From Felis catus (Eukaryota): a DNA stretch of 64,000 bases. The stretch's first letter is position 1. Every line of letters starts with the position of its first letter. The stretch is taken from assembly GCF_018350175.1 (NCBI RefSeq), contig NC_058368.1:78308001-78372000 (forward strand), written 5' to 3'. Shown one piece after another: positions 8,119 through 36,413 of this stretch. Below the pieces are notes generated by a model that searched no databases, was not told the origin of the DNA, and saw nothing but the letters and a program-made list of their open reading frames with translations. The translations under genes were made by a program, and so were the position numbers.

Positions 8119-10878
<2,760 letters not shown>

Positions 10879-16651: not shown

Positions 16652-16867
16652 AAGGTCCATTCTGATAGAGGTAAGGGAGGGCTGGGCTGGGAGAAAAGAG
16701 AAACAAAATAAGTTACGGATGCGTTTTTAAGGAAGTACCGGAACGCACGGTACATACCCCTCCTAACTCTATTGGCCAGACACGCTGTCTTAGGTAATTA
16801 ATCCTAATCTGTGTACACGCTTAGAGCTGTGTCCCAAAGGGAAATCTGGTGCGTTACCAACACTCAC

Positions 16868-17000
16868 CCTGGGGGCCTCGGATGAGGGGCAGGAGGCCTC
16901 CAGGTGCCCCGGGCTCAGAAGCCGCCGGGTCCGGTAGCCCACCGCGAGATCCAGCGTGCCGGCGGCCAGGCTCCAACGTATCTTGTCCGTGCCGGCCACC
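16868..17000 (-). other. LIG4: Probable LIG4 distal alternative first exon (5' end approximate)
   Basis: Strong minus-strand donor AGG|GTGAGT (plus-strand ACTCACCCT, 16862-16870) at the left edge of the CpG island. Confidence 0.6.
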
Positions 17001-17790
17001 GTCGCCGGGGACTCCCCCGACTGTGGTTTGTGCGCATGCCCGGGAGGGCGGGCCGGGTTCCCACTAGGAGGAGGAAGGCGGAGAGGGGAGCAGGTGATGT
17101 GGGAGCCGGCGGGGACATTTGCCGGCGACACCGAGCGTGGGCCGGAAGTGGAGGAGCCGCGAGCGGCGCCGCAAGAGCTCCGGGCTAGACCGTGGCGACG
17201 GCGGCGGCCCCTCGGCTGGAGGAGGACGATGAGGAGCGACGGAAGCGGCGCGGGGGGACGCTGCCGCGCGGCAACGGGTTCCGTGTCCGCGGCCCACTGC
17301 GCAGCCTGCGAGCAGGTCTAAGTAAGTACGGTGCGCGGCCGCCGAGCCGCCGGGTGCGCTCCCGCCGGGGAGGGACGCGGGGGGCGGCCGGCGGGGCCTC
17401 GCGGGCGCCCGGGACCCGAACCGCCTCCCCGGGGGAGCGGGACCCGCTCCGCAGCCCCGCGGCCCGTCGCGGGACGGGGCGCGCCGGTTACCGAGCGCCC
17501 GGCGCTGCCGTGCGGGGCTGGACGCGGAGCGCGTCTCCGAAGCCTGTCGGCGGTCAGGTCAGGAGCGCGCACAGACCGGTACTTAGAGCTCGCCCCTCGC
17601 GGCCCGCGCCCTCCCACGCTCCTGGCGAAAGTGACACCGAACTCCCCCAGCTGCGCGGTCAGAGAGGGCCCGCAGAGTCCCGGCCGCTCCCCGCCACCGA
17701 CAGGTGTAGACCTGCGGATTGCATGGCAGCAAGTTTGGGGTGTCTAAGAAACGGCGCGAGTGCACCCCACGCAATTGAAGTCGACTTTGC
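16870..17790. promoter_or_regulatory. CpG island, bidirectional LIG4/ABHD13 promoter
   Basis: Very high GC/CpG; NRF1-like TGCGCATGCC (17031-17040), GC boxes, GABPA/ETS GCCGGAAGTG (17141-17150); splice donors point outward on both strands. Confidence 0.9.
17150..17321 (+). other. ABHD13: ABHD13 exon 1 (leader; TSS approximate)
   Basis: Donor TAA|GTAAGT at 17321/17322 inside the CpG island, downstream of the ETS motif; pairs with the acceptor at 35378-35379. Confidence 0.8.
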
Positions 17791-19423
17791 CGTCGATTTT
17801 TGTCAGCTTTTGCTTTCTGCAAAATGCGATGCTGGTGATACTCCCCGGGGCATCATAACCGAAAACAAATCTTTTATTCGGGTGTTTTACATAGGTTCAC
17901 TAGGTCATAGTAACAACATTAAGGCACAAGAGGCTTCCAGTTTTGATGTTTGATTTATATTGATCCTGTCCTGGTTTCTTTGGCCCGGGTGAATACTTAC
18001 CTGTGTCCATACTTAGATTAATCACATGTCTTTTACCAAGAAGTTGCATTTTATTTGAGTAAACGATAATTTGCTGCCATGCATGTAATGGAATCTCATA
18101 ATTATGCCACCTAAAACATAGACTGCTCAATTCAGTTAATTGTTGACTTACTATGTGCCAGGCACTGACTACCGAAAATAGAGAATCGAATAGATGAAGT
18201 CATGGTCATCGAGGAGCTCCCAGTCTGTGTAAAACAGGTGAATTAATTATTCTACAGTAGTAAGCGTCACCACATAAATTTGTACGAACTGCAGGATGTG
18301 GAATGGTTGGTAGGGGGGAGTAGAGGTCCAGGAAAGGCTTTCTGAAGGAGCTGCTACCTGAACTGGGTTTTGACAGAAAGGTAACGCATTGCCCTATTTA
18401 TTTCCTGTGTGCACATCCTCCGGTATTCTCCAGTGAGTCTCATCCATTATTTAATCCAAATCTAGCAGAACTTGTAGTTGTGCTTACTTTCATTCACCCT
18501 GCTCTAGTGGCTGTTAGAATATTTAAATTTCGTCTTCTAGAAGTGGCTGCATTAACACACTACGTATGACATTTGATGCCAGCAGTTTTTCTGTTACATG
18601 TTTCGTCTCCCTTTTAGACGTGAGGAAGTATGTATTCAGAGAAGCTAAGTGAGTTGGCAAAGGCCACCTAGCTATTAGCAGACCAGGCCAGGAAACCTGT
18701 CTCTTTCCACTGCCCCACGCTGGCTGCCTCCCATTGGTAGCTGATTGGAAATGATGACTGTGAACCTGCTTAGGGACGGCTGTGTGTCCAGACCCAGGCG
18801 CACCACATGCCTTCGCGGGCCCGCTTCTGGCCCCTTGCCCTCTGAGTGACAGGATTTACAAACCAGATTGTGCTGGGTTAACGAGATCACTCAGTGATAG
18901 GTTCAGGAAGCTGTCCAGCCTGGCATTTTTCTAGGGTGCCCTCTCTCTTGTTACTCATCTCATGGGATTCTTTTCCTATTTTTCTGTTTCCCACTAATTT
19001 AGAACTCAATTATTACTCAGATTCTAAAATCTTTCCGAACCTTGTTTCATCACCTCAGGGATGCCTGGGGCCCTTACATATGCTTCTTGGATGTTGACCA
19101 AAAAAGGTGTTAGTTTTCCTAATTCTTCTAATTAAGATTTCTGCCCCTCAAATGATACCTTTCATAATAAGTTATTATAGTTTATGTTAATGTTTCTTAT
19201 AGGTCTTAACTCCTTCAGCAGTGCATTCTACTAAAATTGCAAAGGTGTACTATTTCCAGGGCATGCACTATATGCATTAATGAGTTAGACTAGGGTCTTA
19301 CCTTTTCTGTAACAGTGTTGTTATAAGAAAATGACTTTTCAGTTCCATCCATCTGGTTTATAGTAAAGTGTCTAGAACAGTACCACTTCATAAGTTGGAA
19401 ACATACTAAATTTCACTATCAGT

Positions 19424-19642
19424 CTTTTTTTTTTTTTTTAGTGTTTATTTTTGAGAGAGAGAGAGAGAAATAGAGCACGAGCAGGGAAGGGGAACAAAGA
19501 GAGGGAGACAGAGAATCTGAAACAGGCTCCAGGCTCTGAGCTGTCCGCCCAGAGCCCAACGCGGGGCTCGAACTCACAAACGGTGAGATCGTGACCTGAG
19601 CCAAAGTCAGACGCTTAACCTACTGAGCCACCCAGGCGCCCC
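19424..19642 (-). mobile_element. CanSINE
   Basis: Full-length reverse copy; TSD caYtatcagtctt. Confidence 0.95.
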
Positions 19643-20721
19643 TCATTATCAGTCTTAATTCTAACATCACTATTTGCATTTTTAGCCTCCGTGGATTTTT
19701 TTTAAATGATTTTCTTTCTTACAGATATTTGTAATCTCAGAACAGATTGTGATTGGCTTCCAGTGGCAGTGAGCTGTCCTCTTTGTTCTGTCAGTTGACT
19801 CTATCTGCCACCCCTTCCTTGCTTCCAGTAAAAGGGGAAGGCACAAAAATGCTCTGTGTCACCACCTGGTGTGTTTGAGATACCTGCCCAAGCAGAGTTC
19901 AGTCCCTGAACTAGTCTGCTGTCCACCATTTTCGTAGGCAGTTGGTGCTTCATTTGTCCCCTGGGGCTATTAATACACACTTCTTCATTATTGATGACAT
20001 GTGGGTAACCGTTAGGGAAATAGATAATTCATTCTGTGGTGTCTCCCAACACTCTGATAGCTTTTTGTGTTTCCATTTCAGCTGTGCAGCTGGCATGGTT
20101 TCTTCTCTTTCCAGCGCTTCGCAGAGAAGGGGATATATCGATGCAGGAAGGCTGAATCTGCATTCTTCATTACTTGAAATGTGATTGGAAACTGAATTCC
20201 CTTAGAGTCCTTAATAGTGCCGCGGAATACTCGTTCTTCCCCTGTTGTACAGCTGTTAGCAGCTGTTAGAATTTGCTTTCTACTTTTTACAGTCTTCTTG
20301 CGAACCTCCATGCTGTTCTGTCACTTGTAGGTAGGTTTTTTAATGTATGATCAGTTTTTGTTCTTAAAACTATTCCTGAAATTATCAATCTGAGATGGAC
20401 TCAAGGGTCTTTAAAAATAATAGTACATTGATGAATTAGGAGTTTCTTAGTTGCATTTATAATTGCTTAACCTTTAGTTTGGGGGGAATTCGTGTGTCAC
20501 GTCTAGGTAAACGTTGTTTCAAAGAACTTTTTTCTGTCGGCAGAATCAGTAAGTCAGTAATGCAATGTAAACTTTTGCAGTTAAAAAAATAGAATAATTG
20601 GCATTTACTTTTTTGTGTGAGAATTCCAGCCTTTATTAAAGTATAATTTTAAGTGTGATTAAAAGAATAACTTACATACTTTGCTAGTTATTGAGGCAAT
20701 AATCAAAAAATGTGTTCAATT

Positions 20722-21063
20722 AGAGAAAGACAAACGTATGACTTCACTCATAGGAGGAATTTAAGATACAAAACAGATGAACATAAGGGAAGGGAAGTAA
20801 AAATAATATAAAAACAGAGAGGGGGACAAAACATAAGAGACTCTTAAATACAGAGGACAAACAGAGGGTTGCTGGAGGGGTTGTGGGTGGAGAGATGGCT
20901 AAATGGGCGAGGGGCATTAGAGAGGACACTTGTTGGGATGAGCACCGGGTGTTATACGTAGGGGATGAATCACTGGAATCTACTTCTGAAATCATTATTG
21001 CACCATATGCTAAATAACTTAGAGGTAAGTCAAAAAATTAATTAATTAATTAAAAAAAAAAAA
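20722..21063 (+). mobile_element. 5'-truncated carnivore/felid L1 3' end with poly(A)
   Basis: AAAACAGATGAACATAAGGGAAGGGAAG...TTGTTGGGATGAGCACCGGGTGTTATA...GATGAATCACTGGAATCTACT signature followed by an A tail. Confidence 0.88.
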
Positions 21064-22130
21064 GGCAACCACACATGAGAAGTATCAGGCATGTGATGTG
21101 AGAGGGGCTCAAATCAGAGCCCCCTTCCCTGCATGGTACTGATGTGACCTGCCAGGCCAAGTCCAATGGCACTGGAGGGGGTGGTGTCTGAGGGCCCTCC
21201 CTGCTCCAGACTGCCCCAGAACTCAGGCCCAGGAAGGGATGAGGTGGGCCGTGTGTGCATCCCTGTACCTCTGTCTCAGGTTTCTGCCTGACTCCATGGC
21301 CCCCTTCAAGGTGTTTTTCAAGGCTAGCTGCTTCCGATCCATTACTTTCAACCAAGGCCTGGACCCAGATGGTCCCAGCGGCCTCTCACTCTTTCCTTCC
21401 CACCACAACCCCCACTGCCCCCCAGTCCCCCAGCCCCCAGGGGCCCCTCTGCCCGCCGCCTGCCCACTCACTACCAGCTGGCTACCTCAGGGGCCACCTG
21501 CTGTCAGGGGCTTCTTCCGCCCACTGCACCTCCCCCCAGGCTCCCAGCCCCCCGACAGAACTAAGTTCCCTTTGGCCGAGCCCCTCAGCACCGCCGCTCC
21601 CGGCTCACGCTGACCACCCAGCATGTCGCACCATGCCATACCATGCCACGCCATGCCCAGGGTGCAGGCTCTGGCACCACAACCCCAGTCCAGGTCGGTG
21701 AGCACACTGGACAAGACAGTCCCTTCTCTCTTTAGAACCCAGTTGCCATGCCTAACCAGAAAAGAGGTGATCCATGGGGTAGTGATGGTTCCTTTCAACA
21801 GTGGTGGTCCGGGTCCGCAGCCAGACCGCCTGGGTGCCAGCTCTGCGAATCTCCCCCCCCCCCCCCCCCCCCCCGCCCCAGCCACATGACCCTGGGCACA
21901 TCTGTATGTGGGGGTGGCTGGTACCTACCTTGAAAAGTTCAAGGCATTACACGAGGAAATATTAGGGTGACCATATATCTGGCTGTGCCCAGAACAGTCC
22001 CAGTTTGTACCTGTTGACCTGTCACAGTTAATTGTGCCTCCTTTCGCTCTCACTAGTGAAGAGAGGCAGAGAGCGTGCTGTGTGCCTGGCAGGATATTCA
22101 GCTATTCAATGATTATGACAGTGCTCATTC

Positions 22131-22243
22131 TTTTTTTTAAGATTTATTTTTTCACTTAATCTCTACCCCCAACGTGGGGCTTGAACTTGCTACCCCAAGA
22201 TCAAGAGTCACAGGCTCCAGTGACTGGGCCAGCCAGGTACCCC
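22131..22243 (-). mobile_element. Short tRNA-Lys-like CanSINE lacking the CT body
   Basis: Reverse of GGGGTACCTGGCTGGC...CTCTTGATCTTGGGG...AAGCCCCACGTTGGGGGTAGAGATTA with A tail. Confidence 0.8.
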
Positions 22244-22244
22244 T

Positions 22245-22469
22245 GTGATGTCAATTCCTGATTGCTGAGGCAGTGACACAAATCTGCATGTGATAGAATG
22301 ACTTGGAACCTGTATGGATGTCAGCTTCCCGTAACGATGCTGTTCTCCAGTGATGGGAGGTGTTGCTGTGGAGGAAAACTGGGGGATGTGTACATGGGAC
22401 CTCTCTTTACTGTTCTTGCATTTTCTTTTGCATCTGTAATTACTTCAAAACGAAAAGTTAAAAAAAAAA
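22245..22469 (+). mobile_element. Old L1M 3'-end fragment
   Basis: GGAAAACTGGG...TACATGGGACCTCTCT..TACT...TTGCA...TCTGTAATTACTTCAAAA..AAAAGTTAAAA signature. Confidence 0.6.
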
Positions 22470-23001
22470 TGTATCCCTATAGTTTGAGTTTTAGTTCTTG
22501 ATATATTTAAGTTGTTCTCCTCTTTAAATTTTGGATAAGGAGTTGATAATAGATTACCAACTTCAGTGGGCAAGCAGTAATATTTTTTGGCAGGGAGGAA
22601 GTTGATGGTGGTTGTTACTCTGGACTTGAAATTAATCTTTAGTGTTTGCCATCGTGTACTTTACTTTCACTGGAGAGAATGACCCGAGTTCCATTAACAA
22701 AGCAAAAGCAAAGCATTGCAGTGTTCATAGCAACTCATGATAGTTCCTTATATAGTCCTGGCTTTTCTTTGTCTCTGCCCAGTAATACTCCTAAAACAGG
22801 CCAGGTCTGTTGTTTTATGTGAAGGTTGTGTAGCCAAACTTATTTTCTACAATTTAAGTGTGTGCTCTTTAAAAATATGTTTCTTTGATAGTAGTGGTCT
22901 GGGAAGGAGACTGAAATGTATGATGAATAAAATATCTTACAAACCTCAGTTGAGATATAAAATCACTGTATCTCTGTGCATCTGAGTTTTCTAGAGACTC
23001 A

Positions 23002-23212
23002 TTTAAAAAATTTTTTTTAATGTTTATTTATTTTTGAGAGCGTGTGAACAAAGTGGGGGAGGGGCAGAGACAGTAAGAGACACAGAATCTGAAACAGGCT
23101 CCAGCTCTGAGCTGTCAGCACAGAGCCTGGCACAGGGCTTGAACTCAAGGACTGTGAGATCCTGACCTGAGCCAAAGTCAGACACTTAACCAGCTGAGCC
23201 ACCCAGGTGCCC
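23002..23212 (-). mobile_element. CanSINE
   Basis: Full-length reverse copy; TSD ~gaSactcattt. Confidence 0.93.
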
Positions 23213-23760
23213 GGACACTCATTTTTAATCTTGGTGCATACTTAACCTCTCTCACTTACTTTTCAATTACTCCTTAAAGTCAACTGGGCCCTCCAACCTC
23301 TACTAGTCAGTAAAGACCATGTATTTTGTAATCTAATGCTTATTTTCCAGTTCTGCCTTTCATTTTTCTCTGTCACCTGTAAAATGAATTTGTGAGACCC
23401 TAGGGATTATTCAGTTTAACAGTTTGGTTCGACAGATACGGAAACTGATACCCAAGGTAAAAAGTGATAGACAGGAAGACCCATTATTCAGGGTCCCCAT
23501 ATTTAAATGTGGACTTAGTGATTTGAGAATGTGTGAAGCAGGGTTCATTGGGTAAAAGCCTCACCCAGGTGACACAGAACTTGTGCCTGAGCTGAAAGTT
23601 CTCTCTCCAAAGCTTGTCGTTTGTCTTATGTTTGTGATCCTTGGGAACCTGAAGAATGTTAGGTGTTTTTGTTAAAGGTATTTATCTTCCAGAATCTAGC
23701 AAGCTGTAACAGTGTATTACAATGCACAGAATATTTAAATTAAAAGAGTACATCATTCTT

Positions 23761-24590
23761 TTGGAGGTGGGGGAGTTCTGTTTTTATTTTATTTTGTTTT
23801 ATTTTATAGTATTTTATTTTATTTTGTTTTATGTTATGTTATTTATTTTTTAATTTTAATTCCAGCATAGTAACATACAGTGCTACACTAGTTTCAGGGA
23901 TTTATTCTGAGGCTGCAAAAACATTTCAGTATTCTCAGCATGATACAACACATTAACAAATTGTAGGACAAATCATATGGTCATTTTGACATTCGGAAAA
24001 ATCATTTGAGGGGCGCCCGGGTGGCTCAGTCGGTTGAGTGTCCAACTTCAGCCCAGGTCATGATCTCACGGTTCATGGGTTCGAGTCCGGCATCGGGCTC
24101 TGTGCTGACAGCTCAGAGGCTGGGGCCTGCTTCGGATTCTGCGTCTCCCTCTCTCTCTGCCCCTCCCCCTAACCCCCCTCTCAAAAATGAGTAAACATTT
24201 AAAAATGTATTTTAAAAAAGATTTGAAATAATTGAACATCATTTCATGATAAAAACTCTCAACAGAGTGAGTATAGAGGGAATACACTTCAATATAATGA
24301 AGGCCATGTATATAAAAATCCCAAAGCAACATTGTACTTAGTGGTGGAAAACGGAATGCTTTTCCCCTAAGATCAGGAACACGACCAGGAAGTCCACTCG
24401 CCTCACTTTTAGTGTTCTATTACTGCGGGTGCCGGCTGTAGGAGGCTTCAGTGTGGCCTCTTCTCTCCATTTTGTCATCGAGTTTCTTCTGTCAGTCCTC
24501 GGGTTGATTTCCAGTGTATTTCGGGTGATTTGGTGGCTACCTGGTTGTGTTCCTGGGCCGAGACAAGTGCCGCTGTCCTCCTCTCCCCGT
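23761..24590 (-). mobile_element. Rearranged carnivore L1 insertion (5'UTR piece + inverted ORF2 piece + 3' tail)
   Basis: 14-bp TSD AGTACATCATTCTT at 23747-23760 and 24591-24604; three L1-like segments in alternating orientation between them. Confidence 0.75.
24010..24212 (+). mobile_element. CanSINE nested in the L1 ORF2 fragment
   Basis: Full head and body; TSD ~aaaaaWSatttga. Confidence 0.93.
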
Positions 24591-24668
24591 AGTACATCAT
24601 TCTTAATGTGAGAGTGACACATCTGCGGAGGGAAAGGCAGTAAGGTTCTAGGGTCAGGCACTATGGAA

Positions 24669-26145
24669 CAGTGGTTTTTAAGCTTTCTGGTCTCAGAACC
24701 CCTTTACATTTTAAAAAATTGTCAAGGATGCCAAAATGGTTTTTGACATGTGTACTATACACAGATTTATTGTGTTAGAAATTAAAGCTAGGAGTTTATA
24801 AAATATATAACGTTGTCATTTTAAAGTGGCAGTAAAAAATCATTACATATTCACAATTAAAAAAAAATTTTTTTAACGTTTATTTATTTTTGAGACAGAG
24901 AGAGACAGAGCATGAGCAGGGGAGGGTCAGAGAGAGAGGGAGACACAGAATCCGAAACAGGCTCCAGGCTCTGAGCCGTCCGCACAGAGCCCGACGCGGG
25001 GCTCGAACTCACGGACCACGAGATCGTGACCTGAGCCGAAGTCGGATGCTTAACCGACCGAGCCACCCAGGCGCCCCCACAATTTTTTTTATCCAAAACA
25101 GGTGTCTTTGCAAAACAATTAATGGGGAGTGTGGCATTGTTTTACATTTCTGTAAGTATCTTTAATGTCTGCTTAAATGGAGGCTGGCAGATTATTATCA
25201 TCCTTCTGCATTCATTCTCCTAAGGTAGGTGGTTTTAGGTAAACTCTGAAGAAAATTGGGCTCACATAACCCTGCAGCTGTCAAGGGAGGAGTATCGTGG
25301 CTGTTCTTTGGTAACTGCGGTATTCAACAGACGGTAGTCAAACTGTAGAATCCGAACCCCGTATCAAAGAACTTTTCGTCTTTGTCACCTTGACATCCAA
25401 AAGCTTATGTTATAATGAATTTTTATCCATGCTGGATCATGGGACATCATTCATTGGTGACTTGGAAAATACTAGTATGCCGTGTTGGGCAGATTCTTCC
25501 AAATGTTGAGTCATTTCGTAGGTTGTCAAAAGTCACGTTTGCTAATATCGTCACCACCACGATGCCATCAGAAGAGTCTCCGAAGTCATGGGATGCTATT
25601 GGCCACTTCACATTCATTTTTCATAAAATGTCTACTAGACATCTAACTCTGAATGAGCATACTTTATCAGGTGGCTGTTTCAGTAAAAATGTTGTCACCT
25701 AGAAAAGCAGCTGGGTCAGCTCACAGCTCAGAATTTCAGCATTCAGCGCTGGTGTTGTTTGTGTCCTCCGCATTTTGTCACACAGAATATTAAAGACGTG
25801 TACTCACTGGTTGAGATATAATCCTTCCCATTTTGTCACACAATATTAAAGATGTATATTCAGTCGTTGACATATAATTACATTAATAATTTTTGCGGCT
25901 CTCTCAGTGACATTCTTATGTAAAAATGACTTCTCTCCTTCCTGGAATCCGTGGGGATAAAGAATATGATTCTTAAGTCTTGGTGCCTCTGCCTTGATTC
26001 TTGTTGCCTGTCATTGGTTTTGTACCTTAAATGTGAATGTCCAACAGTGAAAAGCCAAATAGAGTATAGGCAAATACGGTATAATTGTAATATTGATCTT
26101 GAAGACACCTATAAAGGGTCTTGGTGACCCCTGGGAGTCTGCATT
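24669..26145. mobile_element. hAT-Charlie DNA transposon fossil (Charlie1a/b-like)
   Basis: Begins CAGTGGTTTTTAAGCTTTCTGGTCTCAGAACCCCTTTACA; contains GAGTGTGGCATTGTTTTACATTT and CTTCTGCATTCA motifs; ~1.25 kb once the nested SINE is removed. Confidence 0.75.
24859..25077 (-). mobile_element. CanSINE (young, CpG-rich) nested in the Charlie element
   Basis: Full-length reverse copy; TSD cacaatt. Confidence 0.95.
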
Positions 26146-27345
26146 GGCATAGAAAGGTCTCAGGTTTAAGAGGGACCTCAAAGATCATCCAGTTCAACTG
26201 CTCTGATTTCCTCTACACTGGGGTTGCCAGGTGTTTACTTAGTTATGCTTAAATACTTCCAGTTCCTGTGAGTAATTGTGCTGAGTAGAAACAAGTGGCA
26301 TAGACAGTTCTTTGATGGCAAGTAAGAGAAATTCTTAATCCTGGAGTTATGCTTTGTCCTGTGTTTTAAGAATTTGCGTACATTTCCGCTTGTTTTCTGT
26401 AAGTAATTGAACATGATGAAACGCAGGGATTACTAAAAATTATGTTGTAAAGGACACATAGTTGTGGTTTTATTTTTCTGTTGGTGTATTTAAGGACAGT
26501 TGTGATCTTTGATTTTCTTTGTCTCTTCTATACTGAAATGAACTTATGTTAGACACGCACTGTTATGTATGCCCATGTCTGTTTCCTGAGTAGATCACGA
26601 GCCACTTGAGAACAGGGGCTGTACATGTACAATTTTTAAATAGTCTGTAGTGCCTAAACACTATTATTCACCCGGTAGGGTCCGCATATGTGTGGCATTG
26701 TCTTTAATCTGTAAATAGTGTGGTAGGACACACTGGAATCTGATGAGGCTGGGAAACCAAGTATGGGTGCTTCAGTGGCCCAGCTGGGTTTGAGAAATCC
26801 CCCGGGCTTGGCGGTAGTACCTAAGGACTCGTGTCATTGAGGATGGACATGACTTCCATACTGATCTCTTTTATTTAAATATTTTTCCTCGGAATGGGAG
26901 CATTTGCGTTTCTCCAAGGACATACATATGAGGGAACGCACGAGGTAATTCATGGAGATCAGAGGAGCACGCCCTCACTAACCCTGCTGACTTAGCACTC
27001 TGCTCACACTAGCCAACCTGGTGGTTCTGACACATTTACAGCTTCAAATTGTTTTTATTTTTTAGTCTTAAATTGGTTATTGTATACTTATAATGGTCTA
27101 ATAACTTAAATACCTGAAGCATATGGAGCACTAAGCTGAATAAAACAAGTTAATCAGGACCATAAAATTCTCAAGATGATCGTCACCAGACCTGTAAGTT
27201 GTATTCATAGGATTAAAGTGCTTATATAGTACATCAAGATGTTGCTGATGCTTCAAAACTATTCTTCTGAAAGGAAAACTATCCTAATTATTTCTACTTT
27301 GTCATAATAAAATCATAATAAAAATTAGTCATGTTTTCAATAGAT

Positions 27346-27547
27346 TATTTTATTTTATTTATTTTTATTTTTGAGAGACAGAGCACGAGCAGGGGAGGGG
27401 CAGAGAGAGAGGGAGACACAGTGTCCGAAGCAGGCTCCAGGCTCCGAGCTGTCAGCACAGAGGCCGACGTGGGGCTCGAACTCAAGAACCACGAGATCGT
27501 GACCTGAGCCGAAATCAGATGCTTAACCTGAGCCAGCCAGGCGCCCC
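27346..27547 (-). mobile_element. CanSINE
   Basis: Full-length reverse copy; TSD tcaataRattattt. Confidence 0.95.
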
Positions 27548-29432
27548 TCAATAAATTATTTCTTGAGACGTGCTTACTAATATCACTATGATACCTCTAA
27601 TCACTTGGTCTAAATAAAAAGCACAAAATTATCTTTTAGGTTGGTTGGTTTTCATTCAGAGTCAAGACCTGTGCATGTTATGATAATATGCTTATTTTTG
27701 AAATTATAACACAGTAATTAAATTTTAGTTTAATATATTATTATACATTGAGCCCCAGAATTTTACCTGTGGTTTTTGAAAAAGTATTTGTTTATACATC
27801 ATGCGTTTTTTTTTGTTTGTTTGTTTGTAACTAATGTAAAGCATGGAAAATGTGAGGCGGAGAAGGTTGTGGTTAGTTGTAGAGCAGTTTGAGGTGTCAG
27901 TGAAATATCAGGTATTCAAGGAACAGATAAACCGAGATCGTAGGTGGAGTAAACATAGAGAATCAGAACGATTTATACACGAGTGTGATACTCCGAGGCA
28001 TGAAAAAGAATGAAATTGCTGAGGGAAAGGAGGTAGATGGACAGGACCTTGGGAAATGCCTCTGTTTGGGGTGGGTCAGAAGGAGCAACTCTGGAATTGG
28101 AGTTACCGGAAGCTGAGGGAGAGTCTGCGTTCGGTGCTGCTTAGGGTTTTGGGGCCGCGGTGTGGATTGAGAGAATCTGCTGGATTTGTTAGCAGGTGAG
28201 GTGCACTTTTTGTGAGAGATCGTGGTGGGAGCTTGCGCATCACATTCTCAGTGAGTAGTTACTGGGGTGGTTTAAGCCACAGGTAGACGGGCTGTAGAGA
28301 CATTTGACATGCGAGGCCTGGTGTGATAAAGTGGCAAGAGCAGAACTGAGGGTTGGGAATAAGTCAGATATTCAAGATGTAGGCATGAGGTGAAAACATG
28401 ATAATGACGGAGAGGCCTGGAAGATGACAGGGTGTCTGTCGGTTGGCTGAGTTTCTGCCGTCATCAGGTCTAATGAATGCCTTTTACCTCGAGGCACCTT
28501 TCTAGTTAGTGTCAACTTTGGTTTAACTTTGAACGTATTTAACTCACCATTTCTGTGGATTGTTTATGATACTAACGTGACGCATTTGAGCACGCAAAAG
28601 AAGCCGGCAAATAAATCGATGTCTTCTGGAAGCACATTTCATAAACGTTTGCCCCGTAAAACGCACTCTCGGGTGTAGCCAGTTGCCTTGCGTATTGTCC
28701 GTGACCGGCGGCTGGATATCCGCGCTCTGGAGACCTGATAGACCATACCTGGCACCACTTCTGTCCCCTCTGTTGAAGGACATGGGATAGAAAACCCAGC
28801 ACGTCAGCATCAGGTGTGTTGTCCCCAGATAATAATAGCTCAGGCTGTGGAGAGGGAGGGGACATGTGGGTGGGAGCAGATGCCACCCTGACTTGGCTAC
28901 TTCTTGCTCCTCGGGAAGTAGTATCTTTTGTAATAGCACGTGCACACTGCGTCCGACTCAGCAGAGGACACGCCAGTTACGGGTCAGATCCCCGCTGCCG
29001 GAAGCCCCTCTTTATCCTTCCCCTTGGACATGTGTTGCCCTACTCAGGGCCTGCTTAATCCACATTTAGCTCACCATGAGGGGTCAAGTTTACCACGCAC
29101 AATGTTGCTTAGAAACGGCTGCTATCCCACCTTTATCAGGTTTCCAGGGAAACAGTGCTAGAAGGTTAACCAGAGGTCATTTTTTTCATGCTAGAGAAAA
29201 GGTTTTGTTAACCCTTTACCTACACGAATTTATTGGCAAAATAGATGGCAGACTTACATACCACTAGCTGTAGGATCCGTGCGGTGTACCGTTTCAGAGG
29301 TACTGCGCATTGGCAGGGACTTTTGTAACATCTGGGTCTATATGAAATTGTTTTTACGTGCCAGCAGGTGACTCCAGTAACTGTGTTCTGCTGATGGTTT
29401 CAACAAATTCAGTAAATAAAAACATCCTTCCT

Positions 29433-29655
29433 GGGCGCCTGGGTGGCTCAGTCGGTTGAGCGTCCGATTTCGGCTCAGGTCATGATCTCACAGCTCGTGA
29501 GTTCGAGCCCCGCGTCGGGCTCTGTGCTGACAGCTCAGAGCCTGGAGCCTGCTTCTGCTTCTTTCTGTGTCTCCCTCTCTCTCTGCCCCTAACCCACTCG
29601 CATTTTGTCTCTGTCTCTGTCAAAAATAAATAAACATTAAAAAAAATTAAAAAAA
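29433..29655 (+). mobile_element. CanSINE (young)
   Basis: Full-length; perfect TSD aaataaaaacatccttcct. Confidence 0.95.
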
Positions 29656-30293
29656 AAATAAAAACATCCTTCCTATTCGAGGCTTGCTTGTTCCAGTTCC
29701 CTTAAGAGCATAGAGGTGTGACACAGACTGGGGAGCAGAAATTACTATCAAATTGGGTCAGGTAAGAGTAAGGCAGTCTGTGAGTAGAGGTCTCTGTCTA
29801 AACCACCAATAAATATGCCAAAGCGTATTAAAAAGGGGACAGCACACTTTCAAGTGTGTACTTGAGAGCAGTTTTTATTAACCTGTCCTTAGAATTGATT
29901 TCCATTTGAGATTCCTCCAAATGGATTGACATTTATTCTGGCTTCCACCACTTAAGATTATAAAATTGCCTTTGTTTATCACAAAGAGCTTTAGTTAAGG
30001 TGCCTTTTCAGGAATGCTTTCTGGAAAACCGTAAGTTTAATTCTTGTTATTTCTAACCAAAAGTGGACTCACATATGCCATTTTCCTAATGTCCAGGCTT
30101 AAATATATGTGCCCAGTACTCAGAATACAGTTATGTTTTCTTAGAAGGCTAATAATGTACATACATTATTTATTCATTTAAAAAACATTTTAGTTTGGAA
30201 TATATGTAAAGTGGTGTCCTACCCAGTAGAGATAACAGTAGTGAAAAAGAGAAAAACGGTTCTTGGCTTTATAGATTTAAATTCAATATTATA

Positions 30294-30520
30294 GGGGCGC
30301 CTGGGTGGCGCAGTCGGTTAAGCGTCTGACTTCAGCCAGGTCACGATCTCGCGGTCCGTGAGTTCGAGCCCCGCGTCAGGCTCTGGGCTGATGGCTCAGA
30401 GCCTGGAGCCTGTTTCCGATTCTGTGTCTCCCTCTCTCTCTGCCCCTCCCCCGTTCATGCTCTGTCTCTCTCTGTCCCAAAAATAAAAAAAACGTTGAAA
30501 AAAAAATTTAAAAAAAAAAA
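30294..30520 (+). mobile_element. Young felid CanSINE (SINEC_Fc type)
   Basis: Full-length; perfect 16-bp TSD taaattcaatattata. Confidence 0.96.
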
Positions 30521-32737
30521 TAAATTCAATATTATATGTTGAAATCAGAAATTAAAGAGGCTACTTTGAAAAAGATAATTTTTCCAAGTTTGAATAATTG
30601 AAAATTGTAACTCTTTTTTCTGTATGTTTGATATATATGTATATATGAAATGTTCAAGTAGTTTTTGGTAACAATTTTGTTTGATTTGAAAACTGAGTCA
30701 ACTCCTGATTATCCACGATATAGGAACCCTTATCAAATTTCTAGATTTGCTTGGCACATTCTGATGTTGATGTTAATTTGAGCAGAACATGGTTAAGAAC
30801 ATAGTGGTGTAGCTAGAAACACTAGTCACAAAGGCAAATAAAGTTCATATATCTATAGTATCTGTAAATGCTTTTCAAATTAGTTTCATTTGGTAATGCT
30901 GACCAGCCTTATATGTAGGCATTTAAAAAATTATTCCACTGAAAAGGGAATTCAGACTGGAAATAAGTGATAAACACAAGATTGCTCAGCAGCTATATGG
31001 TAGAGCAGAATTTTAGGGTCATGGAATTTTAGCCGTGTGTTTTTTCCTACTAAATCACCAAATGAATGGTGTTTCAGTTACTCCTCTCTCTGATACCACT
31101 GTCACAAATGATTGGCTTTAACTATGAAAAAGACAGTAAAATTGTTCACTGAAGACATACCTTAAATGGTATCTTATTTTCCAAATAGTGCGGTGCTCTA
31201 GTATGTTGGTATTTTATATCCCAGACCTTGTTAATCCTAATCATTACACAGAATTTTTTCATTTTGATGTATAAAGTTAACAATGATGTGTTTTCACCTT
31301 TCTCCAGTACAGCGCTTGGTACACATGAAAATCCTTGACAATCATTTGTACTTAAAAAAAATAAATAGAAGTAAGTAAACATGAGATGAAAAGTTTAAGT
31401 GGGCCAGATATGTTGTTGAGACTCGCGCACTGCGTTGAAGGGATGTGGCATAGCCCTGTGTGATCTAAGCTGTCGATAAATAGCCGTCAGAGAGGCTATT
31501 ATTATGAGAGGCATTGGTTGATGAACGATCTGGAATATTGGCTTATTTGGCTGCTCTGAAGCAGCCCCTCTCAGTTCTGGTTTTTAACCAGGTCGTGACA
31601 CCCAGTGCTCGGGTGCTTTTAAGCTTGAATTTTTTGTTTGACTTTCTGTATCTGCTGTTCTCTAGCTCAGCATGGTGTTCATGTAATAAAACTTGCTACA
31701 GCTGGGTGGCAGTGTTGACCACAGAGAAACTTCAGGAAAATGCTGTGCTGTTGGTTTATGTTCAGAGAGAGTCATTTGGGTAAGAATTCAAATTTGAAAG
31801 TGTATGTTCAGCGAGCTAGTAAGTAAGGTATGTTTGGTGAGGTAGTGGTGAAATGTCAAATCTGTTAAATCGTCTAACTCGGCTTTATGGCCAATCTAAT
31901 TTAATTTGGTTTTATGATTTTTTTTTCAGTGTTTAATTCAGTGAACAAAAATGTCAAGTTTATTAGCTTATAGAATACAGTAAAATTTTTAAAAATCAGT
32001 CGTTAACAATTATCTATGAAATTTAAGAATAACTTCTTTATGGTAGTTTTGTTTGCAAGTAAAAGAGGATTTAATATTTTTTAAAACTCGGCAAACGTAT
32101 AAATAGATGACTGCTACATAAGAAAGCTTACAACATACCTCACTTTTTTTGCTTTTTTTAAGACAGTATGCATAAAGTTTTTTATTTGATAACCAAAAGA
32201 TATTGACTTAAAGTGCTTTTCTTCTGTATTTTCTTTTATCAATTATAATTTTCAGAAATCTTTAAAAACATTTTTCTCCAATAAGTCATTTTCTTCATTT
32301 TTCTCTGGTTCTCAAATAGAATTGCTCTGTCTTCGTTTCACACTTCTCCCCCAGGTGTTTATGGCCTTTCTAATACGTCATACTAATCTGGATTGACTCA
32401 TGATGGGAAATTGTAGTAAGGGCTGTATAAAGATTGTGCTTATTTCATGATGCTAGCAGTCTGAAATTTCTTTTTAATCCAGTGTGAAATAAATTATTGA
32501 ACTCTTTCTAAAAAATAATGCAATGCTGGAAACTAGTAGTTAATTTAAATAAATTATTGTTTAACTGGGAAATCCTGCAGGTAGAGAAGAAAATATTTTA
32601 TTCTTACCTCAGTTTGTTTAGGTACAATTTATAATGTGAAAAAGAAAATTGACAATAAATTGTATCAGATTGATCTTGACTAATTAGAATATATTAACTA
32701 TCTCTTTAATAAAATTTGCTTTCAACCTGCCTAGCTC

Positions 32738-34910
32738 AGTGAAGTTGTAGGATACAAAATCAATATACGAAAATCTGTTGTTTCTTTATACTAATAATTA
32801 TCAGAAAGAGAAATTAAAGAAAATGGTTTTGTTTATAACTCCATAAAAAAATAGAATACCTAGGAATAAGTTTAGTCAAGAAAGGGGAAGACCTCTACCC
32901 TGAAAACTATAAGACAAGTATGAAAGAAATTGAAGAAAACACAAATAAATGGAAAGATAATTCTGTTTTCATGGATAAGAATTGTTATTATGTCCATATT
33001 ACCCAAAACGGTGTACGGGTACAGTGCAATCACTACCAAAATTACAATGGCAATTTTTACAGAAATAGAACAGTGATCTTACAATTTGTGTATGGAACCA
33101 CAAAAGATCCCAACTAGCCAAAGCAATCTTGAGAAAGAAAAACAAAGCTGGAGGCATACTCCCTCATTTCTAACTATATTACAAAGCTATGTCAAAACAG
33201 TGTGGTATTGGCATAAAGACAGACACAGTGATCAATGGTGCAAAATAGAGTCCAGAAATACACCTACACATAGATGGTCAATTAATTTACAACAGAGAAG
33301 CCAAGAATATACAATTGGGGCAAATGGTGCTGGGAAAACTGGATATCCACCTGCAGAAGAATGAAACTAGGGCACTACTTTACAACATACACAAAAATTA
33401 ACTTAAAATGGATTAAAGACTTTAAGATCTGAAACCATAAAACTCCTAGAGGAAAACAAAGTAGTGAGCTCCTTGATGTTGTCTTGGCAATGATTTTTGG
33501 ATCTGTGACACCAAAAGCAGAGACAACAAAAGCAAAATAACTAGGTGGGACTACATCAGACTTAAAAAGCTTCTACACAGCAAGGGAAATCAACAAAATG
33601 AAATGACTGAAGGGGAGAATATATTTGCAAAGCATATATCTGATAAGGGATTAGTATCTAAAGTATGTAAAGAACTCACAGAACTCAGTAGCAACAAAAC
33701 AATATGATTATGAAATAGATGATCTAAATAGAAGTTTTTCCAGAGAAGACATACAGATGGCCAACACGTACCTGAAAAGATGTTCAGCATCACTGATCAG
33801 GGAAATGCAAATGAAAAACCACAGTGAGATGTTACCTCACACCTGTCAGAATGGGTATTATCAAAACGCAAGAAATAAATATTGGCGAGGACGTGGAGAA
33901 AAAAGGAAACCCTCAGGCACTGTTGGTGGGAATGTAAATTGGTGCAGCCAAGGAAAAATAGTATGAAGGGTTCCTCAAAAAATTAAAAATACAACTACCA
34001 TATGATCCAGCAATTCTGCTTCTGGCTGTTTATCCAAAGAAAACAAAACCGCTGACTCAGGAAGCTATATGGACACCCATGTTCATTGCAACATTATTTA
34101 CAATAGCCAAGATATGGAAACAACCTAAGTATCCATTGATGGATGAATGGATGAAGAAAATATGACATGTACACACAATGAAATATTACCAAGCCATAAA
34201 GAAGAATGAAATCTTGCCGTTTGCCACAAAACAGATGGACTTGAGAGCATTATGCTAAGTGAGATAAGTCAGAGAAAGACAAATCTATATGATTTCATTT
34301 ATGTGTGGAACAAGAAAGAAAGAAAGAGAAAGAAAAACACCTAAACCCCAAGTTTACAGATACAGAGAACAGGCGGCTGGTTGCCAGAGGCAGGGATGGA
34401 GGAAATGGGTGAAGGGGATCAAAATGTACAAACTTCCAGTTTGAATTGTTTGGGGACATTAGGTACAGCTTGGCCGCTATCATTAATACTGTAGTGCATA
34501 CTCATGGGGTGCTGGGGGGGCTCGGTTGAGCGTCCAACTTCGGCTCAGGTCACGATCTTGCGGTTCGTGGGTTCAGGCCCCACGTCAGGCTCTGCGCTGA
34601 CAGCTCGGAGCCTGGAGCCTGCTTCAGATTCTGTGTCTCCCTCTTTCTCTGCCCCTCCCCTGCTCATTCTCTGTCTCTCAAAAATAAAGATTAAAAAAAA
34701 TTTTTTTTTAAATACCGTATTGCATACTTGGAAGTTGCTAAGAGAGTGGATCATAGAAGTTCTCATCACAAGGAAAAGAATTTTGCAGCCATGTTTGGTG
34801 ACAGATGTTAACTAGACATACCGTGATAGTTTCTCAATATAGACAAAGATCCTTACGTTGTACACTTGAAAACAATAAAATGTATGTCATTTATGCCTCA
34901 ATACAAAAAA
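32738..34910 (+). mobile_element. 5'-truncated L1 (L1MA/L1_Carn-like): degraded ORF2 3' part plus 3' UTR
   Basis: ORF2-like peptides (MKEIEENTNKWKD; KTVWYWHKDRHSDQW), typical 3' UTR; degenerate TSD tcaacctRcctagcYcaStga. Confidence 0.9.
34506..34709 (+). mobile_element. CanSINE nested in the L1 3' UTR
   Basis: CanSINE body and tail; TSD ~aatacYgtaKtgcatact. Confidence 0.92.
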
Positions 34911-35344
34911 GAAATTCTCTCAACCTACCTAGCCCACTGATGGGCACACCAGGAGCTTCGGGATCATGCTCGTTGGCCTTTGGGCTCTTCATCCTGAGGA
35001 GCTGGGAGCACAGCCATTGACTTAAGCCCCTGAGCTTCTGTTGCCTCATAAAAATTTGGGAACAGGGCATTAGCTGATTTTTGTGTCAAATCAAGGAGGA
35101 TGCATTAATGAAAGTCCCTGACAGTAATTAAGCACTTTTTTAGAAAAATGTATATATTTTGATAAATATTTGTATTTCGTAATCCTAGCAGTGGAAGCAG
35201 AAAGGAGACTGTTGAGACCAGAAGAAACAGGGGAATTTGAACAACGGTGGATGGAATGATGTAGCCTTCCAAGGGTTCTCTTAGTGCCGTGATTTACTGT
35301 CACATGGATTTAACTTTTTAAATAATGTAAGTTGAATTACTGAT

Positions 35345-35375
<31 letters not shown>

Positions 35376-35377
35376 TT
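35345..35377 (+). repeat. (CT)n microsatellite forming the ABHD13 polypyrimidine tract
   Basis: Lies directly between a branch-point-like TACTGAT (35338-35344) and the acceptor AG (35378-35379). Confidence 0.85.
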
Positions 35378-35399
35378 AGGACACTTACGGAGAGCTACA

Positions 35400-36413
35400 A
35401 TGGAAAAATCCTGGATGCTGTGGAACTTTGTTGAAAGATGGCTAATAGCTTTGGCTTCGTGGTCTTGGGCCCTTTGCCGTATTTCTCTTTTACCTTTAAT
35501 AGTGACTTTTCATCTGTATGGAGGCATTATCTTACTTTTGTTAATATTCGTGTCAATAGCAGGTATTCTGTATAAATTCCAGGATGTATTGCTTTATTTT
35601 CCAGAGCAGCCATCTTCTTCACGCCTTTATGTTCCCATGCCCACTGGTATTCCACATGAAAACATTTTCATCAGAACCAAAGATGGAGTGCGTCTGAACC
35701 TTATTTTGATAAGATACACTGGAGACAATTCGCCCTATTCCCCGACTATAATTTATTTTCATGGGAATGCAGGCAACATAGGTCACAGGTTACCAAATGC
35801 ATTGCTTATGTTGGTTAACCTCAAAGTTAATCTTTTGCTTGTTGATTATCGAGGATACGGAAAAAGCGAAGGAGAAGCGAGTGAAGAGGGACTCTACCTG
35901 GATTCTGAAGCTGTGCTAGATTACGTGATGACTAGACCTGACCTTGACAAAACAAAAATTTTTCTTTTTGGCCGTTCCTTGGGAGGAGCGGTGGCTATCC
36001 ATCTGGCTTCCGAAAATTCACATCGGATTTCGGCCATTATGGTGGAGAACACGTTTTTAAGCATACCGCATATGGCCAGCACTTTATTTTCATTCTTCCC
36101 AATGCGTTACCTTCCTTTATGGTGCTACAAAAACAAATTCTTATCCTACAGAAAAATCGCTCAGTGCAGAATGCCTTCTCTTTTCATCTCTGGGCTCTCC
36201 GACCAGTTAATTCCACCAGTAATGATGAAGCAACTCTATGAACTGTCCCCGTCACGGACTAAGAGATTAGCCATTTTTCCCGACGGGACTCATAATGATA
36301 CGTGGCAGTGCCAGGGCTACTTTACTGCCCTGGAACACTTCATCCGAGAAGCAATAAAAAGCCGTTCTCCCGAAGACATGGCACAGACCTCACCCAACGT
36401 CACGATTATATGA
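35400..36413 (+). CDS. ABHD13: Alpha/beta hydrolase domain-containing protein 13, 337 aa, single coding exon
   Basis: Intact ORF with strong Kozak (acaATGg), N-terminal hydrophobic helix, HGNAGN motif, nucleophile elbow GRSLG (Ser193), downstream SDQLI and GTHND catalytic Asp/His motifs; exon starts at 35380. Confidence 0.98.

What the first reader, a model, noticed from the sequence alone, without database searches (positions are those of the whole stretch)
17192..35402. Candidate GUG-initiated, 50-aa N-terminally extended ABHD13 isoform
Seen in sequence: GTG at 17192 has an ideal context (accGTGgcg; A at -3, G at +4), two codons after an in-frame TAG (17186-17188). It is 130 nt from the GTG to the donor at 17321, and exon 2 adds 20 nt (35380-35399). 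The total of 150 nt is in frame with the ATG at 35400 and has no stop: (M)[54 protein letters not shown], giving 387 aa instead of 337. The extension has an acidic patch, an RRKRR basic cluster and an Arg-rich amphipathic-looking stretch just ahead of the hydrophobic helix. Established: near-cognate starts in strong context produce N-terminally extended proteoforms in mammals. Inference: the extension could change targeting or membrane topology of this poorly characterised serine hydrolase. Caveat: GC-rich leaders are often stop-free by chance, and one frame in three matches at random.
Basis: partly seen in the sequence, partly recalled or inferred. Interest (0 to 1): 0.75.

Follow-up and report, generated by a model that had tools for sequence, protein, structure and literature searches.

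The report
Catalogued GUG-start extension of ABHD13
The leader of the ABHD13 gene really can be read in frame for 50 extra codons from a well-placed GTG, but the same extension of the human gene is already listed in published genome-wide screens, remains unproven, and shares its RNA with ordinary AUG-started upstream reading frames.

Summary
The sequence facts hold. TAG 17186-88 is followed by ACC and GTG 17192 (A at -3, G at +4). The donor is CTAA|GTAAGT after 17321, the acceptor is at 35380 and the ATG at 35400. The 130+20 nt are stop-free and in frame, giving 387 instead of 337 aa. The open frame itself is not special: 30% of dinucleotide shuffles keep it open, and all six frames of this CpG island have stop-free runs of 100-254 codons.

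The idea is not new. The human orthologous extension, also 130+20 nt, is in the updated PhyloSET of Fedorova et al. with PhyloCSF120 +22.7. It is also among their top-5000 Ribo-seq-ranked extensions, but not in any top-500 table I could search.

Ten lineage groups retrieved from protein databases keep the frame, with only 3n indels. However, the leader just upstream of the stop is conserved equally well.

Two AUG uORFs overlap the extension. Their human counterparts are GENCODE Ribo-seq ORFs.

Neither source I could search listed peptide or targeting-signal evidence.

Verdict: a plausible, minor, already-catalogued non-AUG proteoform within a uORF-bearing regulatory leader.

The parts
16800..17750 (.). 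CpG island (GC 0.65-0.83) holding ABHD13 exon 1 and the divergent LIG4 promoter side
   Evidence: composition profile; LIG4 ORF on the minus strand
17036..17038 (+). ATG in the main frame but upstream of the TAG. It is homologous to the start of the 437-aa cetacean gene models, where the TAG position is a Tyr codon.
17097..17321 (+). uORF from uATG1 (G at -3, T at +4): 74 codons plus TAA, in the +1 frame relative to the extension
   Evidence: the same 74-aa ORF in two other records, P0039 and P0040; human counterpart c13norep66 starts with the same MWEPAG
17186..17188 (+). In-frame TAG bounding the theoretical extension. Not conserved: the position reads Q, E, Y or R in other lineages.
17192..17194 (+). 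Candidate GUG start (A at -3, G at +4)
   Evidence: The position is Val or an ORF-caller start codon in 9 of 10 lineage groups and Ala in P0038.
17192..17321 (+). Exon-1 part of the extension (130 nt)
   Evidence: the human counterpart chr13:108218530-108218659 is also 130 nt
17229..17321 (+). uORF from uATG2 (A at -3, A at +4): 30 codons plus TAA. It lies between the GUG and the main AUG, out of frame with both.
   Evidence: the human counterpart c13riboseqorf56 ends at the same exon end
17322..17327 (+). Splice donor GTAAGT
   Evidence: junction reading ..AGL-R.. in 6 of 6 spliced models or transcripts
35380..35399 (+). Exon-2 leader (20 nt) after the acceptor ...ctttag
   Evidence: the human counterpart is 20 nt
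35400..36413 (+). ABHD13 coding sequence, 337 aa, single exon; ATG in strong context (A at -3, G at +4)

Best explanation
Exon 1 of ABHD13 is a conserved, very GC-rich leader inside the CpG island it shares head-to-head with LIG4. Most ribosomes that start in this leader probably do so at two upstream AUGs (17097 and 17229). Their +1-frame uORF ends exactly at the exon's last codon, 20 nt before the main AUG in the spliced mRNA.

The main frame is open for 51 codons behind a TAG. Its second codon is a GUG in good context. A small share of scanning ribosomes probably starts there, or at one of the other in-frame near-cognate codons. That would give a minor 387-aa ABHD13 with a disordered, highly charged N-terminal tail: an acidic patch followed by many Arg, net +8. 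By the positive-inside rule this tail would sit on the cytosolic side, ahead of the hydrophobic anchor.

Shown here: the sequence geometry, frame retention in other mammals, and the listings of the human orthologue in a Ribo-seq screen and a PhyloCSF screen.

Inferred: that the GUG is the start used, that the product accumulates, and where the tail sits.
For: Geometry and start context.

The human orthologous extension has the same 130+20 nt layout. It scores PhyloCSF120 +22.67 in the updated 177-gene PhyloSET. ABHD13 is also listed in the RiboSET_ext sheet, which holds the top-5000 Ribo-seq-ranked extensions.

The frame is kept from the T-V-A-T-A-A-A motif to the donor in all 10 lineage groups retrieved. 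Ruminants carry three separate indels, of +1, +2 and -4 codons, all 3n. The translated frame falls apart immediately in the intron.

The residue before the GUG is Thr or Ile and the residue after it is Ala wherever they are visible, so A at -3 and G at +4 are kept.

Spliced ORFs that carry the extension exist: a 386-aa ruminant ORF seen on 27 contigs and annotated 437-aa cetacean models.

Over nearly the same nucleotides the uORF frames score strongly negative in mammals, -231 and -786. In my two-frame reconstruction against a cetacean-like sequence, 7 of 8 substitutions change the uORF peptide, whereas 3 of 6 changed codons are synonymous in the extension frame.
Against: An open frame is expected here by chance: 30% of shuffles keep it, and all six frames are long and open.

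The 33 codons upstream of the TAG cannot belong to this extension in this species or in human. Yet they are as conserved in translation as the extension, 0.85 against 0.84, and diverge equally at the nucleotide level, 6 of 92 against 8 of 133. The conservation may therefore be a promoter or 5'UTR constraint.

Codon-position counts of 1:3:4 from 8 substitutions do not differ from neutral.

The extension changes about twice as fast as the enzyme core, 3 of 44 against 9-10 of 337 residues.

ABHD13 is in no top-500 RiboSET or original PhyloSET table that I could search. It is not among 192 peptide-supported upstream regions.

One lineage (P0038) has Ala in place of the Val.

Replicated human Ribo-seq evidence belongs to the overlapping uORF. 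That uORF could account for footprints in the leader.

Retrieval by protein search is biased towards species where the frame is intact.
Confidence: 0.55

Rival explanations
1. There is no meaningful extended protein. Exon 1 is a purely regulatory leader and promoter. Its main frame is open by chance in GC-rich DNA. It is conserved at the nucleotide level because of the bidirectional CpG-island promoter and the 5'UTR. Leader footprints come from the AUG uORFs and from scanning complexes.
For: Chance openness. Equal conservation of the non-extension leader upstream of the stop. The human uORFs are Ribo-seq ORFs, one of them replicated. Both uATGs have a purine at -3. The human Ribo-seq support for the extension is low-rank, and no peptide evidence was listed in the one catalogue searched. 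The predicted RNA fold is no more stable than shuffles, z = -0.48.
Against: A positive PhyloCSF over 120 mammals was found for only 177 genes after filtering. The ruminant indels are all 3n. The start context is kept. The uORF frames score strongly negative over the same bases.
Confidence: 0.38
2. An extension is made, but it starts at another in-frame near-cognate codon: ACG 17198, or CUG 17216, 17261, 17297 or 17306. This would give a shorter tail. A start at one of the later CUGs would leave out the acidic patch and expose the Arg-rich segment, which has no acidic residues.
For: Eight in-frame near-cognate codons were listed. CUG is usually the most efficient near-cognate (recalled knowledge). 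The Leu residues at 17261, 17297 and 17306 are largely conserved.
Against: Only GTG 17192 and ACG 17198 combine a purine at -3 with G at +4. The reconstructed cetacean-like codon at 17261 is no longer CTG. TargetP found no presequence in the human extension: ABHD13 is absent from that sheet.
Confidence: 0.12
3. In lineages that have lost the TAG, a longer extension of about 100 codons is read from the upstream in-frame ATG (homologue of 17036), as cetacean gene models annotate it. The 50-codon form in this species would be the remnant left after a stop arose.
For: 437-aa models from 3 cetacean species (Physeter, Mesoplodon and Kogia), a 469-aa Balaenoptera musculus record that starts at an ATG still further upstream, and P0036, which starts with M at the position of 17036. 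In all of them the frame is open through the TAG position.
Against: These are automatic longest-ORF models. The residues at the stop position (Q, E, Y, R, stop) look like neutral drift. Human and this window differ by a 4-nt indel between uATG1 and the GTG: 91 against 95 nt. In human annotation the ATG lies at or just outside the transcript start (inference).
Confidence: 0.1

Closest known systems
Human ABHD13 theoretical non-AUG extension (ENST00000375898.3) in Fedorova et al., Nat Commun 2022 (RiboSET_ext) and the 2024 Addendum (updated PhyloSET)
   Same: The same gene and the same layout: 51 codons behind an in-frame stop, 130 nt in exon 1 plus 20 nt in exon 2 for the last 50 codons. No AUG is available in that frame.
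   Different: That listing is for human, and only in supplementary tables. No start codon, rank or experiment for ABHD13 was visible to me. This window is another mammal, for which I have no expression data.
GENCODE Ribo-seq uORFs of human ABHD13, c13norep66 and c13riboseqorf56, as tabulated by Sandmann et al., Mol Cell 2023
   Same: Both uATGs are present here at homologous places, with peptides beginning MWEPAG... and ...MRSDGS.... The second uORF ends at the last base of exon 1 in both species.
   Different: Here the two uATGs share one frame, giving a single 74-codon uORF. In human a 4-nt difference puts the first into the third frame, where it has 42 codons.
Classical near-cognate N-terminal extensions (PTEN-L, FGF2, MYC; the conserved set of Ivanov et al. 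2011). Recalled, not looked up.
   Same: An upstream in-frame near-cognate codon in good context, a GC-rich structured leader, and a long plus a short proteoform from one mRNA.
   Different: Those have direct protein evidence and strong codon-level conservation. ABHD13 has neither so far.
Cetacean ABHD13 gene models of 437-480 aa (Physeter, Mesoplodon, Kogia, Balaenoptera)
   Same: They contain the same extension peptide in frame, 41 of 44 residues identical to this window.
   Different: They start at upstream AUGs, because the TAG position is Tyr in those species. They are automatic predictions.

Membership tests
Non-AUG-initiated N-terminally extended proteoform | Stop-free, AUG-free in-frame stretch between a near-cognate codon and the annotated AUG in the spliced mRNA | tested here: met
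   150 nt, no stop, no in-frame ATG after the TAG
Non-AUG-initiated N-terminally extended proteoform | Near-cognate codon in a favourable context (purine at -3, G at +4) | tested here: met
   (accGTGg). The context is kept wherever the flanking residues are visible in other lineages. One lineage has Ala instead of Val.
Non-AUG-initiated N-terminally extended proteoform | The start codon lies inside the mature mRNA (TSS upstream of it) | not testable with these tools
In human the extension begins at transcript position 148, and a translated uORF starts 91 nt upstream of it.
Non-AUG-initiated N-terminally extended proteoform | Codon-level purifying selection in the extension frame | tested here: inconclusive
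   My reconstruction gives only 8 substitutions, at codon positions 1:3:4, with 3 synonymous and 3 replaced codons. Conservation equals that of the upstream leader. The published PhyloCSF120 is +22.67.
Non-AUG-initiated N-terminally extended proteoform | In-frame ribosome footprints or an initiation peak upstream of the AUG | not testable with these tools
   Only the literature bears on this: human ABHD13 is in RiboSET_ext (top 5000) and in no top-500 table I could search.
Non-AUG-initiated N-terminally extended proteoform | Peptide or protein evidence for the longer form | not tested
   ABHD13 is absent from the supplementary list of 192 peptide-supported upstream regions. No proteomics tool was available.
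uORF-regulated leader | Upstream AUG(s) within the leader, with a purine at -3, and an ORF ending before or near the main AUG | tested here: met
   uATG 17097 (G at -3) and uATG 17229 (A at -3); TAA at 17319-21, 20 nt before the main AUG after splicing
uORF-regulated leader | Evidence that the uORFs are translated | not testable with these tools
   The human counterparts are GENCODE Ribo-seq ORFs, with 0 MS studies and negative PhyloCSF.
ABHD13 (alpha/beta-hydrolase domain protein 13) | Alpha/beta-hydrolase fold domain and near-identity to named ABHD13 orthologues | tested here: met
   Pfam Abhydrolase_1 and Hydrolase_4. 321-328 of 337 residues are identical to four named ABHD13 orthologues and to the 386-aa ruminant-like ORF P0007, which carries no name.

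The most novel reading that the evidence does not exclude
The leader works as an isoform switch. The out-of-frame uATG2 (17229) lies between the GUG and the canonical AUG, and its uORF ends only 20 nt before that AUG. It therefore drains ribosomes from the canonical start but cannot touch those that have already started at the GUG. The ratio of long to short ABHD13 would then be set by uORF capture and start-codon stringency (eIF1/eIF5, eIF2 phosphorylation). The long form would put a conserved acidic-then-basic cytosolic tail on this membrane hydrolase, conferring a distinct interaction or retention property.
Probability: 0.12. Interest if true: 0.55.

Novelty: already known. Interest (0 to 1): 0.3.

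Why it matters
ABHD13 is a very conserved serine hydrolase about which little is known. A second, longer proteoform would matter for its localisation and for reading variants in its 5' leader. However, the candidate already sits in public catalogues of human non-AUG extensions. The added value here is small. The layout carries over to another mammal. The frame is kept in about ten lineage groups. The extension overlaps AUG uORFs that probably dominate leader translation. And conservation alone cannot separate a coding constraint from a promoter or 5'UTR constraint at this locus.

Tried and rejected
- **RNA reads for the TSS and the junction.** The look-up of sequencing runs listed 24 runs. There is therefore no expression, TSS or junction evidence for this species.
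- **Orthologous DNA.** A degenerate pattern scan of metagenome contigs returned 58 loci. None is homologous to exon 1: blastn gave 0 hits.
- **Retrocopy as a record of the spliced 5' end.** The genome holds only one copy of the coding exon.
- **Structure of an extended orthologue.** An AlphaFold2 run on P0007 with an 18-row alignment gave mean pLDDT 43 and pTM 0.29, and even the hydrolase core was poorly modelled. Nothing is inferred from it.
- **RNA hairpin downstream of the GUG.** The leader folds strongly, -67.3 kcal/mol over 136 nt, but no better than shuffles, z = -0.48. It is not used as evidence.
- **Pfam on the 43-residue exon-1 peptide.** 0 families.
- **Earlier notes of this scan.** Nothing on this locus.
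[quoted passage not shown] ABHD13 with 'ribosome profiling' gave 1 paper, on hens and unrelated. In the library searched, the extension is in print only in supplementary tables.
- **Alternative donor after 17315.** Considered and rejected, because 6 of 6 spliced forms use the 17321-type junction.
- **Supplements I could not see.**
  - Fedorova 2022 MOESM5 (too large) and MOESM13 (pictures) could not be read. They may hold the predicted start codon and rank for ABHD13.


Full report
**Observation**

TAG lies at 17186-17188, followed by ACC and by GTG at 17192-17194, with A at -3 and G at +4. Exon 1 ends at 17321 in CTAA|GTAAGT. The acceptor ...ctttag|GACAC puts the first exon-2 base at 35380, and the ATG is at 35400. 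The 130 + 20 nt contain no stop and are in frame with a 337-aa ORF at 35400-36413. That ORF carries alpha/beta-hydrolase Pfam domains. It is 321-328 of 337 residues identical to four named ABHD13 orthologues and to the unnamed 386-aa ORF P0007. A second donor-like site after 17315 would also be in frame. All 6 spliced forms seen in other species read ..AGL-R.. across the junction, which is the 17321-type junction.

**Chance**

Openness of the frame carries little weight. The leader is 72% GC. 30% of 5000 dinucleotide-preserving shuffles keep the main frame open, and 72% keep at least one frame open. Between 16700 and 17700 every one of the six frames has a stop-free run of 100-254 codons. There are eight in-frame near-cognate codons. 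Only GTG 17192 and ACG 17198 have both a purine at -3 and G at +4.

**Surroundings**

Exon 1 sits in a CpG island at about 16800-17750, with GC up to 0.83. On the minus strand a 911-aa ORF at 8119-10854 is DNA ligase IV. The island is therefore a head-to-head promoter region.

Both run to a TAA that forms the last three bases of exon 1. This gives uORFs of 74 and 30 codons that end 20 nt before the main AUG in the spliced mRNA. A further ATG at 17036 is in the main frame but upstream of the TAG.

**Literature**

[quoted passage not shown] The supplementary tables do hold the gene.

- *Fedorova et al., Nat Commun 2022 (PMC9789052).* I read passages, section 14, the supplement list and part 1 of file 13, and searched the supplements. 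ABHD13 appears once, in the sheet RiboSET_ext_HPA. RiboSET_ext is the set built from the top-5000 extensions ranked by Ribo-seq. ABHD13 is absent from the files holding the top-500 RiboSET and the original 60-gene PhyloSET. It is also absent from the SignalP, TargetP and DeepTMHMM sheets for RiboSET_ext.
- *The 2024 Addendum (PMC10764858).* I read the whole text, searched Supplementary Data 1 and read part 2 of 3 of it. The updated 177-gene PhyloSET lists ENST00000375898.3 ABHD13. The theoretical extension spans transcript positions 148-301, at chr13:108218530-108218659 plus 108229199-108229218. That is the same 130 + 20 nt, with a 51-codon primary extension behind a stop. PhyloCSF120 is +22.67. 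In the part I read, scores run from about 0.8 to 1216, so this is a lower-middle value.
- *Tress-group paper on 192 peptide-supported upstream regions (PMC11317171).* I only searched its supplement. It does not list ABHD13.
- *Sandmann et al., Mol Cell 2023 (PMC10032668).* I only searched its supplement. It tabulates two human GENCODE Ribo-seq uORFs in ABHD13.
  - c13norep66, chr13:108218439-108218567, peptide beginning MWEPAG, PhyloCSF mammals -785.6.
  - c13riboseqorf56, chr13:108218564-108218659, peptide beginning MMRSDGS, PhyloCSF mammals -231.3.
  - Both have 0 MS studies. They are the counterparts of uATG1 and uATG2 here.

The human distances also bear on the frame. From uATG1 to the extension start is 91 nt in human and 95 nt here, a frameshifting 4-nt difference upstream of the GTG. 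From the extension start to the exon end is 130 nt in both.

**My own comparative data**

No mammalian DNA collection was available, so I used ORFs stored in the protein databases. The 43/44-residue exon-1 peptide retrieved genomic ORFs and spliced ORFs from other mammals.

Together with the window they fall into 10 lineage groups:
- the window and P0001;
- P0005, P0006, P0034, P0035, P0036, P0037 and P0038, each on its own;
- six cetacean sequences;
- four ruminant-like sequences.

In all 10 groups the frame is intact from the T-V-A-T-A-A-A motif to the donor, and the translated frame falls apart at once in the intron. Ruminants have three separate indels of +1, +2 and -4 codons, and P0037 and P0038 have one of -1 codon. 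All are multiples of three.

The TAG is not conserved. The position reads Q, E, Y or R elsewhere. In cetaceans the frame then runs on to an upstream ATG, the homologue of 17036, which gives the annotated 437-aa models. The Val or start codon at the GTG position is kept in 9 of 10 groups and is Ala in P0038. The flanking Thr/Ile and Ala residues keep A at -3 and G at +4.

Two cautions apply.
- A protein search can only find species in which the frame is intact, so this is not an unbiased sample.
- Indels in triplet-like GC-rich repeats tend to be 3n anyway.

**Controls that weaken the coding reading**

The 33 codons upstream of the stop cannot be part of this extension here or in human. They are as well conserved in translation as the extension: mean pairwise identity 0.85 against 0.84 over six sequences.

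The uORF frame was also stored as a 74-aa ORF in two other records, with the same start, length and stop. I could therefore reconstruct a cetacean-like nucleotide sequence from two overlapping frames.
- There are 14 differences from the window in 225 nt.
- 6 of 92 lie upstream and 8 of 133 lie in the extension.
- By extension-frame codon position the counts are 1:3:4.
- Three codons changed synonymously and three were replaced.
- 7 of the 8 change the uORF peptide.

The numbers are too small to show selection. They do say that the extension frame fits better than the uORF frame, in line with the published PhyloCSF values.

The extension changes about twice as fast as the enzyme core: 3 of 44 residues against 9-10 of 337.

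**What could not be done**

I therefore have no TSS, junction or expression data for this species. An AlphaFold2 model of an extended orthologue was too poor to use, with pLDDT 43. The leader RNA folds strongly but no better than shuffles.

**Interpretation**

The best reading is that this is a regulatory, uORF-bearing leader whose main frame can also be entered at a well-placed GUG, giving a minor 387-aa form. The tail has 13 Arg, 1 Lys and 6 acidic residues, net +8. It has no Pfam match. In the human tables it has no predicted signal peptide, presequence or membrane helix. The hydrophobic anchor of ABHD13 lies at about residues 27-65. By the positive-inside rule (recalled general knowledge) extra positive charge on the N-terminal side would reinforce a cytosolic N-terminus. 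A change of topology is therefore unlikely.

I put about 0.55 on a real, low-level extended proteoform. I put about 0.38 on no meaningful product. Which near-cognate codon is used remains open.

**Novelty and verdict**

The human counterpart is already in two published catalogues, so the finding is already known as a candidate. Nothing here turns it into more than that. The one untested idea worth keeping follows from the position of uATG2 between the GUG and the main AUG. That uATG would drain ribosomes from the short form only, so the leader could set the ratio of long to short ABHD13.

Noticed in passing
window 8119-10854 (-): A single-exon 911-aa ORF with DNA ligase N/M/C, BRCT and DNA_ligase_IV domains: this is LIG4, arranged head-to-head with ABHD13 across the CpG island.
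   Followed up: partly
window 17097-17321 (+): Here the two upstream ATGs share one frame and form a 74-codon uORF. Its TAA stop is the last codon of exon 1 and overlaps the splice donor. In human a 4-nt difference splits this into two separate uORFs in different frames.
   Followed up: yes
window 17186-17188, and the aligned position in P0002-P0038: The in-frame stop position reads stop, Q, E, Y or R in different mammals. Apart from Arg, each of these residues is one base change from TAG. The stop therefore comes and goes, and where it is absent automatic annotation yields ABHD13 models of 437-480 aa.
   Followed up: partly
window 35335-35379: A (CT)n-rich polypyrimidine run of about 45 nt lies directly before the exon-2 acceptor.
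   Followed up: no
P0014, P0017, P0018, P0019: Gene models in a monkey, a mouse-like rodent, a sheep and a reptile use other first exons with an AUG. They read the short exon-2 leader in the same frame, so that leader is open in frame widely.
   Followed up: no
P0001 against window 17189-17953: The stored 241-aa ORF that is identical over the extension differs from the window's own intron read-through at a few residues. It comes from another individual or a very close relative.
   Followed up: no
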